DNA of 64,000 nucleotides. It comes from a bacterium (lineage in GTDB: Bacteria > UBA8248 > JACPRG01 > G963555815). A program made the position numbers. Each line of letters starts with the position of its first letter. Positions within the stretch are counted from its first letter, which is position 1. Shown one piece after another: positions 34,301 through 40,300 of this stretch. Location of the stretch: contig CBDHDG010000006.1 in assembly GCA_965261595.1 (NCBI GenBank), positions 352,001 through 416,000 of the forward strand. Direction: 5' to 3'.

Positions 34301-37300
34301 CCGCCTCGGGGATCCGGGAGGTGATCATCGACCCGGGGATCGGGTTCGGAAAAACCCTGGAGCACAACCTGGCGCTGATCCGGAACCTGTCCGATTTCCG
34401 GGAGCTGGGGCGTCCCGTCTGCCTGGGCGTGAGCCGGAAGGCCTTTATCGGCGAGATCACCGGGGCTCCGGACGCCCAGGACCGTCTGGAAGGGACCATC
34501 GTCGCCAACGCCTTCGGCCTGGGGGCGGGGGCGGACATCCTCCGCGTGCACGACGTTCAAGCGGCCGTGCGCACGGTGAAGATGGTCGAGGCCCTCCGGG
34601 GGCCGGAAGGGGGGGGGGGGATTTCATTTTGATTGCGTGAAATCGGCCGGCGTCTTATGTAAACTGAATGGCCATGCATTTCATTGACGGACCCGCACAA
34701 ACTCCGTAAAGGAGTTTTCCTTCGACCTGACAAATCCAAAAGGAATCCCGCAACGTAGATCATCTGATGCGGCTATTGGGGTAAAATATCCTCTTCTCCG
34801 CTTCCGCGGGCATCGGTCAGCGGAAGCGGCCGGGGGGCCGAGAAGATATTCAACGATTGGGAACTTCCCGGGGCATCACGGGGTCTAAGGTTGAAGGAGG
34901 GCGAGCGTTCCCCCATCGACCGCACAGGGGCGACAGATTGGGTTGGAGATAAGCCATGATCGATGTCCAAAGCCAGCGCGACACCCGTAAAGTCCCATTG
35001 AAAAAGGTGGGCGTGAAAGACGTCCGCTATCCGATCACGGTCCGTGACAAGGCCAAGGGCGAGCAGCACACGACGGCCACCTTCAACATGTACGTGGAGG
35101 TCCCCCACCACTTCAAGGGGACCCACATGAGCCGGTTCCTCGAGATCCTCAACAAATTCCGAAACGGCGTGAGCATCGGAGGATTCCATGACATCCTGGA
35201 TGCCATGCGGGTCCGCCTCGATGCCGATGCCGCCCACCTGTCCATCGCCTTCCCGTATTTCATTGAGAAAAAGGCCCCGATCTCGGGCATTCCCAGCATC
35301 ATGGATTTCGAGTGCACCTTCTCGGGGACCTCCGGGCCGGGAAAAAAGCGGGACTTCATCCTCGGCGTCACCGTTCCCATTACGACCCTGTGTCCCTGCT
35401 CGAAGGCCATCAGCGCGTTCGGGGCGCACAACCAGCGGGGGCTGATCACCGCCCGGACCCGATTCCAGGACTCGGTCTGGATCGAAGACCTGATCGAGTT
35501 GATCGAAGTCAAGGCGGGCAACCGCATCTACGCCCTCCTGAAGCGGTCGGATGAGAAGTTCGTCACCGAGCAGGCCTACAACAACCCCATGTTCGTCGAG
35601 GACGTGGTCCGCGAGGTGTACGGGGCCCTTCATTCGGACCCCAACTTCACGTGGTTCAGCGTGGAGTGCGAGAACTTCGAGAGCATCCACAACCACCAGG
35701 CGTACGCCTACACCGACTTCGAGCGCAAGCCGTCGGCCGCGAAAAAGACGGCGGCCCGGGCGGCTTCCCCCGCTCTGAAAACCAAGAACGGGCACCCGAA
35801 AAAGTCCGCCCCCGCCTCCAGGGCCGCCAACGGCCGCACCGCCAACGGGCAAAAGTCCAACAGCCGAAGCCCGGCCAAACGCCGGGTCCCGGCCAAGACG
35901 AGATAGCGGGCCTCGGGCCGATTCCGGAACCGGCGATTGAGGGTTCTCATCCAGGGCGCGGGAGCCCTCGGCTCCCTGCTGGGATATCATCTGGCCGAAG
36001 CGGGCCATGAAGTCACCCTCGGCCTCCGGCGCCGGCCCGACGCTTGGCCCCGCCAAGACGGCTCACCCGTACTTTCCCTTTTCTCCCCGAATTCCAAAAA
36101 CAAGAAGACCGTCCCCATCCGGCTCACCTGGCCGGAGCGGAGGGATACACCCGCCGATCTCCTTCTCCTGACCACCAAGGCCCAGGACGCCGAAGAGGCC
36201 GCCCGCCGGGCCGAACCCCTCCTCCTGCCCGAGGGGGCGGCCGTTTTGCTCTCCAACGGGTTGGGGCTCGAGCGCGCCGTCTCGGCGCGCCTGTCCGGGC
36301 GCCTTTTCCTGCGGGGTCTCGCCTACTGCGGCGCCCTCCTGGAATCCCCCGGCGGCGTCCGGGACACCGGCGCGGGCCGGATCGTCTTCGGTTTGTGGGA
36401 AAATGAAGGGCAAGCGGCGTCGGACGCCGGCGGCCGGTTGGAATCGATCCTCCGGACGTTCCGCGAGGCGGGGATCGCCGCGGAGGCCGCGCCCCGGCTG
36501 GACTTGGCGCTCTGGGGAAAGGCCATGGCCAACCTGGCCATCAACCCCCTGGGCGCCCTCGCGCGCGTGCGAAACGGCGTCGTCGGGACCGACCCGCGCC
36601 TCAGCGCCCTCGGAAAGAAAATCCTCGAAGAGGCCCGCGCCGTGGCGGCGTCGGAAGGCGTGTCCATCGGACGGGAGGAGGCGGAAGAAATCTTCCGTTC
36701 GACGGCGGCGGCCACGGCCGAAAACGAGAACTCCATGCTGCGCGACCTCTTGTCGGGAAAACGGACGGAGATCGACCACCTCAACGGGGCCGTGGCCCGA
36801 AGGGCGAAAGAGCGGGGCATGGCCGCCCCGTTGAATTCGGCCCTCGCCGCTTGGGTGCGCTCCTATCATCCGGGGGCCCGGTCTTGACGTTGAAACAGCG
36901 GCCCGCCGGCCGCGATCGAACCCTCCCGAATGACCGTGTCCGGCGGGCCCGGGAGCTGGGAATCGATCCCTATCCCGCCCGCTGTCACGCCAAGACCCCC
37001 GTCTCGACGATCCTCGAGCCGGGTGCTTTGGAAGAGTGCTGGGCCGCCGGCCGGATTCGCGGGATCCGAACCCAAGACGGCGGCCGGTCGATCGTCCTGT
37101 CCGACCTGACGGGAAGCCTGAGGATCCGAGTGCGCCCGGAGGGGATTTCCGGCGCCGGGCGGAAGGTCCTGGGGTTCATCCGGCCGGGCGACATCATCGA
37201 GGCGCGCGGCCGTCTTTCAGAAGGGGAATTTCTCGCCGATGAGGTCCGGCTTCTCGCGGCCGGGGCCGAGCCGGAAGGAGCGGGGGCGGCGGGAATCCCC

Positions 37301-40300
37301 GCCGCCGGGACGCTGCGGCTCCGCGCAAGTCTCCTGAAGGCCGTCCGGGGATTTTTCGACAGCCGCGGATTTCTCGAAGTGGAGACGCCCGCCCTGCTCG
37401 CCGCGCCCGATCCGGCCCCGCACCTGGATTCCTTCGTCACCGAGTACGCCGATGCCCGGGGCCGGCGGCGGTTCTTCCTCCAAACCTCGCCCGAGCTCCC
37501 GATGAAGCGCCTCCTCGGCGCCGGCCACGAACGCATCTATCAGATCGCGAAGTTTTTCCGGAACGGAGAGCGGACTGCCCTGCACAACCCGGAATTTACG
37601 GGAATCGAGTGGTACGAGGCCTACGCCGACTATCGGTCGGCCATGGAGACCGCCGAAACCCTGGTGGCCTCCGTCACGAAAGAAGTCCTGGGCGAGACCC
37701 GGCTGCGGGTTGGGGGGGGGGGCGGCGCCCTCGATCTGAGTCCGCCGTGGGAGCGTATTCGTGTTCGCGACGCCTTCATCCGCCACGCCGGAATCGACCT
37801 CCGGGCGTGCATGAGCCGGGCGGACCTGGCGGAATCAGCCCGGAAGTCGGGCGTGCACGTCACCCCGGACGACTCGTGGGAGGACCTGTTTTTCAAGATC
37901 TCCCTGGAGCGCGTCGAGCCGATGTTGGGCCGCTCACGGCCGACCCTGCTCTTCGATTACCCTGCCCCCCTGTCCCTGCTGGCGAAGCGAAAGATCGACG
38001 ACCCGGCGGTCGCGGAGCGGTTCGAGATCTTCGCGGGGGGCATGGAGCTGGCTAACGGTTTCACCGAGCTCAACGATCCGGCCGAGCAGCGCGACCGCTG
38101 GGAGCGGGAGCTGGACGTCCGGCGAAGCGGAGATCCCGACGCCCCCTCCCCCTCCCCCCTCCCGCCGCTGGACGAGGAATTTCTCGAAGCCCTGGAGGGC
38201 GGCGTCCCCCCGGCGGCCGGCGTCGCGCTGGGCCTGGACCGGTGGGTCATGTTGCTGGCGGGGTGTGCGGACATCGGCGAGGTCCGGTGCTTTGCGTTCG
38301 ACGCCCAAGGCTGAGCGTCGCGCGTTCTCTATCGCGAATGGGAAACAGGGATTCTCGGGCGCCTTCCCGGAACGGGGGACCATGAGGGTGAACATCCGGT
38401 CGAGATGGGCCGCCGCCGCGCTCGGTTTGGGATTGCTCCCCGGGGCCTGCTCCCTCCCCCCCCTCCCCTCCCCATCGGGGTTTTTTGAGGCGTTCAATCA
38501 CCCGAAGCGCACGCTCAAGGACACCGTCCGTTTGCTGGAGCGGAAATCCGGCGGCGAGAGACGGAAGGCCCTCGAAACGATCCTCCGGGACCTGGGCGTC
38601 CGCTATGAAGTCCAGCGTTACCCGGCCGGCCCGGACGCGGCCGGGCCGGGCGAAGGGGCGAATATCTTCTTCGACCTCGGCGGCGGCGCGAAGACCCTCA
38701 TCGTTTCCGCCCACCATGACGCCGTCCCGGGCAGTCCCGGCGCGAACGACGACGCCTCGTGCGTCAGCGCAATCCTGGACGCATACGCCAGACTCCGGCG
38801 GACGCCGCCGGCCAATCTGAAGGTCCGGTTCATCTTCTTCGACGGCGAGGAAATCGGCCTGAAGGGGTCGAAGGAATACGTCCGCGCCCATGACCTGAAA
38901 AACATTCTCGCCATGTTCAGTCTGGAGCTCTGCGGCATCGGGGATGCGGCGGCGGTCTGGGAGTCCGAAGAGACGGAGAGAAAAACCCCGGCGATCCGGG
39001 CGCTCCTTGAAACCCTCGAAGAAAACAACGTCGCCCACCTCGTCGAAGGAGACATCCCGAAATTCGGCTCGGACCACGAGTCCTTCAGGAAGGCGGGGAT
39101 TCCCGCGCTGGCCCTATCCATCTTCCCGAAAAAGGAAGAATCGATCCTGCGGGAATTCATTTTCAATCCGGGCTCGCCCAAGTGGGCCGACCGCGGGCGC
39201 CGGCCCTCCATTCTTTCGGCATTACCACACGCCGAACGACACGGCCGGCCGATTGCGCGAGGACGCCATGGCCTTGATGTCGGAGATCATCCACCGGACG
39301 GTCTTGAGACTGGACCGAACGCTAAAAAAAATCAAAGCGGATCGTTTCGGGACGCGCCGTAAATTTGCATATCCGGCCACGGCCAACTCTTCGGAACCTC
39401 ACGGATTCTTCGACCGCTTATCCCCCCTCTCTCCCCCTCCCCCCCTTCCCCTCGGGCGGTTCGCCCTCCAGGATCACGCTGGCCAGGGCCAGGTCCCGGG
39501 AGTGGGACAGGCTCAGGTGCGCGCGGCGCACCCCCAGGGCGTCGGCCACATCACGGGCGACGCCCGTGAACCGCAGCGTCGGGGGGCCGCCCTCTTCCCG
39601 GAGGACCTCTACGTCTTTCCAGGTGATCCCGCGCGCCCACCCCACGCCCAGGGCCTTCAAGGCCGCCTCCTTCGCCGCGAAGCGGACCGCAAGGTGCTCA
39701 TCGGGACGTCCTTTCGACTCGCAGTAGGCCCGCTCTCCAGGCGTGAAGACGCGGCGGTGGAACCGCTCGCCGTACCGCTTGCCGGCTTGGGCCATCCGCT
39801 CGATTTCCAACAGGTCGGACCCGATCCCCAGAATCACCACGCTTCTTCTCCTCCATGTTGGGCCGGCCGGGACGTTCTCGGTCCGAAAACGTCCGGTCCG
39901 AAAACGCGATGAGAAATTATAGGCCGATTCCGGTTTGACAGAAAAGTTACATCTCTCCCGTTGGATTCCACAGGCAAGGCGCATAAATTTGGAGTCGAGG
40001 TGAGCCATGCGCATACATCAGAGCGGTGAGAAGAGGGCGCGGAGGCGATTCCAGATCATCCTGGGATTGAGCGTTTTGATCCCTTGCGCCCTCCTGGGCG
40101 CCCTCGCGGTGCACATCCTCCGCTCCCGCGAGGCCCAGATGCTCGAAATGGCCCGGTCCCGGACGCGGGCGACCGCGCGGATGGCGGTCTCGGCCGTCGA
40201 GAAGGCCGTGGCGGCGGAGACGGGTGAAATCCTGATGGGGTTCATGAAGGTTGTCCTCGAGCCCGGGCCCTCGTTGAACGAAACATTGAGCGCCTACCTC

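What a model noticed while it worked through the whole genome (the two positions that open the first line are those of the whole stretch)
36884..38314. EpmA (EF-P beta-lysine ligase) that still carries the LysRS anticodon-binding OB-fold domain
g03338 (476 aa) is an EpmA by active site and phylogeny but keeps the N-terminal OB-fold anticodon-binding domain of lysyl-tRNA synthetase, the domain EpmA is defined as lacking. Such long EpmAs are in all seven genomes of this family and in other phyla, and branch below the short EpmAs. It looks like a living intermediate and a natural counterpart of the EpmA-ABD chimera engineered in 2026.
Evidence so far: Over the EpmA cut-offs TIGR00462/NF006828; a separate normal LysRS (g02438) exists. 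Over cut-off in 7 of 21 relatives searched, namely the 7 family genomes, frames about 467-492 aa; long homologues elsewhere. The beta-lysine gate is Ala in 40 of 40 parsed EpmA rows (18 long, 22 short) and Gly in 62 of 66 LysRS rows (4 unread); catalytic-domain tree of 74 rows puts long forms in the EpmA clade, support 100, basal to short ones. AlphaFold model pLDDT 89 with a five-strand N-domain at 88-95; fold search call 119. EF-P has PGKG and an EpmB/KamA gene is present; its LAM_C domain is in 83% of the order but 10% of the class.
(Added by a program. Inside this text positions count along the whole contig: contig position 352,001 is position 1 of the stretch shown here. "Call 12" and the like, gene names such as g00115 and contig names such as C1 are that model's own, and its searches are not shown. 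The text may have been shortened before it was handed on; [...] marks where a part breaks off. The agent that wrote the report below was given it as the finding of a first reader that could run no searches.)

Follow-up and report, generated by a model that had tools for sequence, protein, structure and literature searches.

The report
EpmA keeping an eroded anticodon domain
This gene encodes the enzyme that attaches beta-lysine to the translation factor EF-P, but it still carries a worn-down copy of the tRNA-binding domain of its lysyl-tRNA synthetase ancestor, a form found in several bacterial phyla that suggests the domain first stopped reading tRNA and was later dropped many separate times.

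Summary
The 476-aa ORF passes both EpmA cut-offs, fails the LysRS ones, has the Ala beta-lysine gate, and groups with EpmA (100/100). Its N-domain is a LysRS-type OB-fold: a profile of it hits LysRS first in the PDB, and its model matches LysRS best (Z 15.9). A normal LysRS, EF-P (PGKG) and a KamA-family mutase lie elsewhere in the genome.

First, it is not a natural EpmA-ABD chimera. The anticodon-reading residues are gone: none of 327 long forms keeps 3 of 4, against 132 of 132 LysRS. The fold core remains under relaxed purifying selection (dN/dS 0.34). Second, long forms are not a basal grade. Long and short forms interleave, with at least 8 changes forced, and some short forms start right at the linker of long sisters. 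Long forms occur in at least six phyla, including a named species (Lujinxingia vulgaris); six lie next to efp.

Best reading: an EF-P beta-lysine ligase whose relic domain is structural. Anticodon reading was lost once, the domain many times. No activity was tested. Ten literature searches found no description.

The parts
36884..38314 (+). long epmA ORF, 476 aa, TTG start
   Evidence: AlphaFold model mean pLDDT 90.3
36920..37267 (+). LysRS-type N-terminal domain (aa 13-128): helix 17-24, YPxR motif, five-strand OB-fold 52-125; lacks the Phe and Gln anticodon residues and has a shortened L45 hairpin
37268..37309 (+). short low-complexity linker (aa 129-142) replacing the conserved LysRS linker
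   Evidence: lowest internal pLDDT block (65)
37310..38296 (+). class IIb catalytic domain of EpmA type (aa 143-471)
37421..37423 (+). His180, equivalent of E. coli EpmA His52 (EF-P-specific contact)
   Evidence: role from PMC3950694
37487..37489 (+). Ser202 of the TSPE motif, equivalent of E. coli EpmA Ser76
37559..37585 (+). motif 2 loop Arg226-His234 with Glu229 and His234 (E. coli Glu103, His108, both required for EF-P modification)
   Evidence: PMC3950694
38225..38227 (+). Ala448, the beta-lysine gate (E. coli Ala298; Gly in LysRS)
   Evidence: gate role from bioRxiv 10.64898/2026.07.07.736966
35937..36887 (+). upstream panE/apbA-like gene whose stop overlaps the epmA start; context only
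   Evidence: also upstream in L008, L009, L013
38265..39362 (+). downstream M28 peptidase ORF; context only
   Evidence: also downstream in L009, L010, L013

Best explanation
The protein is an EpmA. It activates beta-lysine with ATP and transfers it to Lys34 of the host EF-P, with beta-lysine supplied by the KamA-family mutase (all inferred from homology; none assayed). Its N-terminal OB-fold was inherited from the LysRS ancestor (homology shown; inheritance inferred from trees). The domain no longer reads anticodons (residue loss shown; loss of binding inferred), which avoids charging tRNA-Lys with beta-lysine. It is kept as a folded structural element, most likely packing on the catalytic domain of the other subunit as in the LysRS dimer (inferred). 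In evolution the anticodon contacts were lost once, early; the now dispensable domain then eroded and was deleted independently in many lineages, so the E. coli-type short enzyme is one end state.
For: Cut-offs (30 of 31 sampled long forms pass TIGR00462). Gate Ala in 264 of 265 long and 131 of 132 short EpmA rows, Ser in the other two, Gly in all 66 rows classed as LysRS (one LysRS row first miscounted as long was removed). Glu103, His108, Arg235, Glu244, His52 equivalents present. EpmA versus LysRS split 100/100. efp adjoins six long genes (L097, L180, L181, L191, L194; L286). KamA-family over cut-off in 6 of 7 family genomes, 0 of 44 other genomes of the phylum. Anticodon set: 0 of 327 long forms keep 3 or 4 of 4, 132 of 132 LysRS do; fold-core Gly/Arg/Asp kept in 312, 306 and 277 of 327. 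dN/dS 0.34 (0.28-0.41) for the N-domain versus 0.17 for the catalytic domain; LysRS 0.17 versus 0.15. 39 of 40 long N-domains group apart from LysRS domains, 90/94. At least 8 state changes forced by well-supported branches. Co-fold with host EF-P: weak support, 0.59 against best control 0.00, possibly from likeness to the solved GenX-EF-P complex.
Against: No activity data. efp and the mutase are not linked to this gene, and efp or kamA lay in only 5 of 65 long loci against 48 of 66 short loci, though flanks differed. Host EF-P has Gln28/His29/Ala36, the pattern usual in organisms without PoxA, and relatives without EpmA also have PGKG. The mutase is below the EpmB and AblA equivalog cut-offs. 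By single-sequence search the catalytic domain scores higher on LysRS than on GenX structures. The dimer-packing role was not modelled. The N-domain tree has few columns and long branches, and the base of the EpmA tree is unresolved, so direction rests on the LysRS outgroup.
Confidence: 0.7

Rival explanations
1. It is an EpmA, but the OB-fold has been repurposed as a binding module (for EF-P domains II/III, the ribosome or RNA) that improves or regulates EF-P modification.
For: The domain is well folded (pLDDT 91.5 alone), under purifying selection, kept across several phyla, and sits where the LysRS domain sits (450 residues align with LysRS). A YPxR motif is conserved in many long forms.
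Against: The conserved positions are those shared with the LysRS fold core; the binding-face positions are highly variable. The domain is lost repeatedly between close sisters. In the solved complex EF-P domain III is displaced from where the domain would be (PMC3950694).
Confidence: 0.13
2. It ligates beta-lysine or a related substrate to a target other than EF-P.
For: No linkage to efp in this family; host EF-P loop is of the type usual without PoxA and differs little from that of EpmA-less relatives.
Against: EF-P contact residues are conserved. His29 EF-Ps lie beside epmA in Patescibacteria and Alphaproteobacteria (L042, L053, L099, L045, L062). Long homologues adjoin efp in six loci.
Confidence: 0.07
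3. It is a natural dual enzyme that modifies EF-P and also charges tRNA-Lys with beta-lysine through the retained domain.
For: LysRS-like domain arrangement. E. coli EpmA has residual tRNA charging even without the domain (preprint). This protein keeps the Arg and possibly the Glu of the four anticodon residues, the most of any long form seen (8 of 327 have two).
Against: The stacking Phe and the Gln are replaced, the L45 hairpin is shortened, and the LysRS linker is gone. The preprint expects a beta-specific chimera to be toxic.
Confidence: 0.06
4. It is a second, divergent lysyl-tRNA synthetase for alpha-lysine.
For: Two-domain architecture; best single-sequence PDB hits are LysRS.
Against: Ala gate, EpmA signatures, tree position, failed LysRS cut-offs, lost anticodon residues, and a normal LysRS in the genome. 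Long-form genomes without class II LysRS have class I LysRS (G052, G055).
Confidence: 0.02
5. The domain was regained by fusion or recombination with a lysS gene, once recently or several times.
For: The catalytic tree alone cannot tell gain from loss; one very divergent long N-domain (P0168) fell among LysRS domains.
Against: This N-domain does not group with the LysRS domains of its own family. Long forms share the same deletions. Short Patescibacteria forms begin at the linker helix of long sisters in the same epmA-efp arrangement.
Confidence: 0.02

Closest known systems
EpmA/PoxA/GenX/YjeA (E. coli, Salmonella; TIGR00462, NF006828; PDB 3A5Z, 3G1Z)
   Same: Catalytic domain (318 residues aligned, rmsd 1.9, Z 40.1), Ala gate, His52/Glu103/His108/Arg235/Glu244 equivalents, same clade, co-occurrence with EF-P Lys34 and a KamA-family mutase.
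   Different: About 130 extra N-terminal residues forming a LysRS-type OB-fold, which the literature says EpmA lacks; keeps a LysRS-like insertion that E. coli EpmA has shortened; not linked to efp or epmB here.
[quoted passage not shown]
   Same: Two-domain architecture and domain placement (450 residues aligned, rmsd 3.4, Z 40.6); N-domain fold, N-terminal helix and core residues.
   Different: Ala instead of Gly at the gate; no GG.ARPF loop; anticodon Phe and Gln, L45 loop and the RYRQRY-type linker lost; below cut-offs; separate clade.
chEpmA (engineered LysS ABD-EpmA chimera, bioRxiv 10.64898/2026.07.07.736966)
   Same: Same domain order: LysRS-type N-domain on an EpmA core.
   Different: The chimera has an intact LysS domain and charges tRNA-Lys; the natural domain has lost the anticodon determinants.
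Other synthetase catalytic-core paralogs (Glu-Q-RS/YadB, AsnA, HisZ)
   Same: Synthetase paralogs that left tRNA 3'-end charging (PMC2821294, PMC9437257 passages).
   Different: Described as lacking the anticodon domain; here the stages of loss are still visible in living genomes.

Membership tests
EpmA | Score over curated cut-offs TIGR00462 and NF006828 | tested here: met
   324.9/286.9 and 268.1/264
EpmA | Ala at the beta-lysine gate (E. coli Ala298) | tested here: met
   Ala448
EpmA | Residues needed for EF-P modification (Glu103, His108, Arg235, Glu244; His52 auxiliary) | tested here: met
   Glu229, His234, Arg379, Glu388, His180. Only His52 separates EpmA from LysRS; Asp177, Asn180, Glu185 and Arg106 equivalents are not kept.
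EpmA | Catalytic domain in the EpmA clade | tested here: met
   100/100 in two careful trees of 100 and 50 rows
EpmA | [quoted passage not shown] | tested here: not met
   OB-fold present. By this criterion it is a variant, not a typical member; the criterion was drawn from short enterobacterial examples.
EpmA | EF-P with Lys34 and a lysine 2,3-aminomutase in the genome | tested here: met
   EF-P PGKG; KamA-family over TIGR00238, below TIGR03820/03821/03822
EpmA | Physical clustering with efp/epmB | tested here: not met
   Not in this genome or family; 9% of genomes with both genes show no clustering (PMC2821294); six long homologues adjoin efp
EpmA | Beta-lysylation of EF-P | not testable with these tools
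   Needs an assay; co-fold gave weak support only
Class II LysRS | Score over TIGR00499 / NF001756 | tested here: not met
   250.5/427.6 and 272.8/468
Class II LysRS | N-terminal OB-fold in the anticodon-domain position | tested here: met
   (predicted model)
Class II LysRS | Anticodon-reading Arg, Phe, Gln, Glu (human R136, F144, Q155, E195; mapped by inference to LysU R78, F85, Q96, E135) | tested here: not met
   Phe to Ser69, Gln to Arg80; Arg62 kept; Glu113 aligns only next to a 5-residue deletion
Class II LysRS | Gly at the gate | tested here: not met
   Ala448

The most novel reading that the evidence does not exclude
Long EpmAs are the ancestral form of the family, and in the least eroded lineages, such as this one, the OB-fold still does something active: it either binds tRNA well enough to charge it with beta-lysine at a low rate, giving a natural route for a beta-amino acid into translation, or has become an EF-P- or ribosome-binding module.
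Probability: 0.15. Interest if true: 0.9.

Novelty: new variant of a known kind. Interest (0 to 1): 0.6.

Why it matters
EpmA is the standard example of a synthetase that became a protein ligase by losing its anticodon domain, and a 2026 preprint speculates that this loss was selected to keep beta-lysine off tRNA. These genomes suggest another order: tRNA reading was disabled by local changes first, and the domain was deleted later and repeatedly. That makes the LysRS-to-EpmA transition testable with a natural series from full domain to none, including a named species. Long forms are also native two-domain scaffolds for beta-amino-acid synthetase engineering, and surveys that define EpmA as single-domain (PMC6544042) can misfile those whose OB-fold Pfam detects.

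Tried and rejected
Short protein from an internal start: rejected, no start codon between residues 83 and 166. Assembly chimera: rejected. Short forms being frameshifted long ones: checked in three frames over up to 600 nt upstream for all locus EpmAs scoring under 12; none hid a domain. One locus, L138, is the reverse case, a long form with a frame break that I had labelled short in the first tree. The treekit AU test did not finish in three runs; the AU test reported is a direct IQ-TREE run under LG+F+G4 with constrained searches cut at 200 s and 5,000 replicates. A search for a long form with an intact anticodon set found none among 327 rows; this is not exhaustive. RNA runs held only 5-7% of the words and gave short pieces from relatives, so expression was not shown. 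The co-fold returned no contacts, so whether the N-domain touches EF-P is open. The ESM Atlas gave PF01336 clusters at 0.91 and no structure search. Earlier findings of the scan: none by sequence or words. PGKG as evidence for EpmA activity: rejected, it is also in 4 of the 5 EpmA-less relatives examined; the fifth was not parsed.
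Full report
OBSERVATION. Window 36884-38314 (+) is one open frame of 476 codons starting at a TTG that overlaps the stop of a panE-like gene. It passes the EpmA models TIGR00462 (324.9 bits, cut-off 286.9) and NF006828 (268.1, cut-off 264) and fails the lysS models. Residues 54-114 match PF01336 at 26.4 bits, just under the cut-off of 27; the domain alone scores 29.6. 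No in-frame start lies between residues 83 and 166, so the catalytic domain cannot be made without most of the N-terminal part. The genome also holds a class II LysRS over cut-off, one EF-P with PGKG, and one KamA-family radical SAM enzyme, all unlinked. The nearest named homologue is labelled Nitrospinota. Of 51 genomes in the phylum, 7 pass TIGR00462; they are the 7 of this family and all have the N-domain.

THE CATALYTIC DOMAIN IS EpmA. Against E. coli EpmA and LysU, the protein has Ala448 at the gate (E. coli Ala298), His180 (His52), the TSPE motif, and Glu229, His234, Arg379 and Glu388, the equivalents of residues required for EF-P modification (PMC3950694, parts 2-4 of 6 read). In 465 aligned rows, many near-identical, the gate was Ala in 264 of 265 long and 131 of 132 short EpmAs and Gly in 66 of 66 rows classed as LysRS; one further LysRS row had been miscounted as long and one ambiguous row is not counted. 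Of 31 diverse long forms that I chose, 30 pass TIGR00462. Two careful trees (100 and 50 chosen rows; IQ-TREE, LG+C20) separate LysRS from all EpmAs at 100/100. Against this, phmmer ranks nine LysRS sequences above GenX; I read this as slow divergence from the ancestor, including a kept insertion.

THE N-DOMAIN IS LysRS-DERIVED. The AlphaFold model (pLDDT 90.3) aligns with B. stearothermophilus LysRS over 450 residues, 8-475 (Z 40.6, rmsd 3.4) and with GenX over 318 residues, 132-475 (Z 40.1, rmsd 1.9). A profile of 37 long-form N-domains ranks eight LysRS sequences first among 41 PDB hits (best E 1.8e-7). The domain folded alone (pLDDT 91.5) matches two LysRS chains best among 48,161 (Z 15.9 and 15.6, all 116 residues), ahead of DP1 (13.2) and AsnRS (13.1).

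IT HAS LOST THE ANTICODON CONTACTS. Human LysRS reads U35/U36 with R136, F144, Q155 and E195 (PMC11643047, passages). I mapped these to LysU R78, F85, Q96 and E135 by spacing and invariance; this mapping is an inference. Among 327 distinct long forms the four were present in 15, 7, 10 and 67 rows; none had three or four. Among 132 full-length Gly-gate rows, 127 had four and 5 had three. The fold-core Gly72, Arg73, Asp90 and Asp120 were kept in 312, 306, 277 and 259 of 327. The L45 hairpin is shortened and the LysRS linker replaced. This protein keeps the Arg and perhaps the Glu, but has Ser for the Phe and Arg for the Gln. In 12 close pairs the N-domain has dN/dS 0.34 (bootstrap 0.28-0.41) against 0.17 for the catalytic domain; in 10 of 11 LysRS pairs (one saturated pair dropped) the values are 0.17 and 0.15 (one planned EpmA pair was left out after a parsing failure). 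The domain is thus still under selection, but about half as tightly. In LysRS this domain also packs on the catalytic domain of the other subunit, which offers a structural reason to keep it; I did not model the dimer.

DISTRIBUTION. Long forms were 87 of the best 150 representatives at 50% identity and 8 of 64 EpmA loci in a capped, named GTDB sample; both samples favour the query. They were 29 of the top 30 loci in the phylum of a Latescibacterota genome (39 of 61 genomes over cut-off), 21 of the top 30 in that of a Myxococcales genome (49 of 71), and 1 of 12 in Patescibacteria (12 of 121 over cut-off). Examples also come from Planctomycetota and Oligoflexia. A 425-aa eroded form is the annotated EpmA of Lujinxingia vulgaris, WP_146975331.1. 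The domains form a series: helix plus OB-fold (this family), OB-fold with YPxR, a minimal 75-80 residue barrel, none.

HISTORY. The base of the EpmA clade is unresolved, so 'basal' is not shown. Long and short forms interleave: 14-15 changes in the first tree (11 after leaving out the mislabelled L138 and two short proteins without genome context) and 10-11 in the second, with 8 forced by well-supported branches in each. Monophyly of the short forms (delta lnL 380) and of the long forms (369) was rejected in an AU test with the limits given under Tried and rejected. Supported long/short sisters include L172/L083, P0134/L041 and P0160/L283. In Patescibacteria, long L286 and short L287 and L290 lie directly upstream of efp, group at 100/99 with L284 and P0146, and the short ones begin at the linker helix of the long one. 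In an N-domain tree 39 of 40 long domains group apart from 25 LysRS domains (90/94; few columns, long branches; two most eroded rows left out), and this one does not join the LysRS domains of its family. Two genomes with long forms showed only class I LysRS. With LysRS as outgroup, one origin and many losses is the simplest reading.

FUNCTION. For EF-P as target: six long genes adjoin efp; the KamA-family gene passes its cut-off in 6 of 7 family genomes and 0 of 44 others (kin are not independent, and in the Latescibacterota sample it is in 51 of 61 genomes, so it does not discriminate there). A co-fold with host EF-P gave weak support: score 0.59, best of 3 controls 0.00, runs agreeing in at least 92% of contacts, partner pLDDT at least 84. 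The mark was reached by 116 of 157 solved and 2 of 215 mismatched pairs, but at 0.60 or under by only 18 of the solved and both mismatches, and a like complex is solved. Against: no linkage here, efp or kamA in 5 of 65 long against 48 of 66 short loci (unequal flanks), and a host EF-P loop with His29, usual in organisms without PoxA, although His29 EF-Ps sit beside epmA elsewhere. The mutase is nearer the clostridial KamA model than EpmB, like several mutases beside efp/epmA in other phyla; the preprint says KamA gives (S)-beta-lysine and that EpmA accepts it, so the stereochemistry is open.

LITERATURE. Ten full-text searches found no description of EpmA with the domain. I read parts 1-3 of 4 of bioRxiv 10.64898/2026.07.07.736966, which says EpmA lost the domain and mentions no natural exception; its supplement was not seen and could bear on this. 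I saw passages of PMC2821294, PMC6544042, PMC11388002, PMC3532385, PMC9437257, PMC4721953, PMC12856214 and PMC11643047, and no supplements. The original structure and mechanism papers in subscription journals were not read. NCBI already names several long proteins EpmA by HMM, without note of the domain.

VERDICT. Real, widespread, apparently undescribed variant of a known enzyme. It works most likely like EpmA (0.7 for the full model), is not a LysRS, and is not a functional twin of the engineered chimera. Its value is evolutionary and practical: it shows the stages of a synthetase-to-ligase transition and gives testable natural proteins. Interest 0.6.

Noticed in passing
proteins P0250, P0298, P0299 (no locus): A small divergent lineage of long forms with Ala gate and a very LysRS-like N-terminus but altered loops around the substrate site; P0250 is below both EpmA and LysRS cut-offs. 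It may have another substrate or acceptor.
   Followed up: partly
G055:C20:2768-6622 and G060:C1:6386933-6389137 (L118, L129, L134, L137): epmA lies just upstream of a class I LysRS gene in two genomes where no class II LysRS was found; one epmA is long, its relative short.
   Followed up: partly
L070:5270-8056: In a Planctomycetota genome the long epmA directly follows another class IIb synthetase gene that looks like asnS by eye.
   Followed up: no
L002:1381-2532 (G000:C5): The host mutase keeps only the first 50 positions of LAM_C and lies between KamA and EpmB in length and score, a second partly truncated ancestor-like enzyme in the same pathway; (R) or (S) product unknown.
   Followed up: partly
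L223-L230 and other family f4 genomes: EpmA-less relatives carry a longer (frames of about 490 aa), distant KamA-like protein below the TIGR00238 cut-off in 31 of 42 genomes; role unknown.
   Followed up: no
L138:1000-1540: Long epmA with a frame break between the N-domain and the catalytic domain; sequencing error or a loss in progress.
   Followed up: partly
G059:C398 and C311 (L127, L131): One genome has two short epmA copies, both over cut-off, and no class II LysRS in the search.
   Followed up: no
window 32037-36887: folC-like, folP, folE2 and panE-like genes run on the same strand directly upstream of epmA; panE-epmA-M28 peptidase order recurs in family members, while one genus has a PUA-domain methyltransferase downstream.
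   Followed up: partly
window 30822-31870: Short ORFs on the + strand that look by eye like pieces of a molybdopterin oxidoreductase gene (N-terminal and C-terminal parts only).
   Followed up: no
G000:C6:845075-845171: tRNA-Sec gene in the genome.
   Followed up: no
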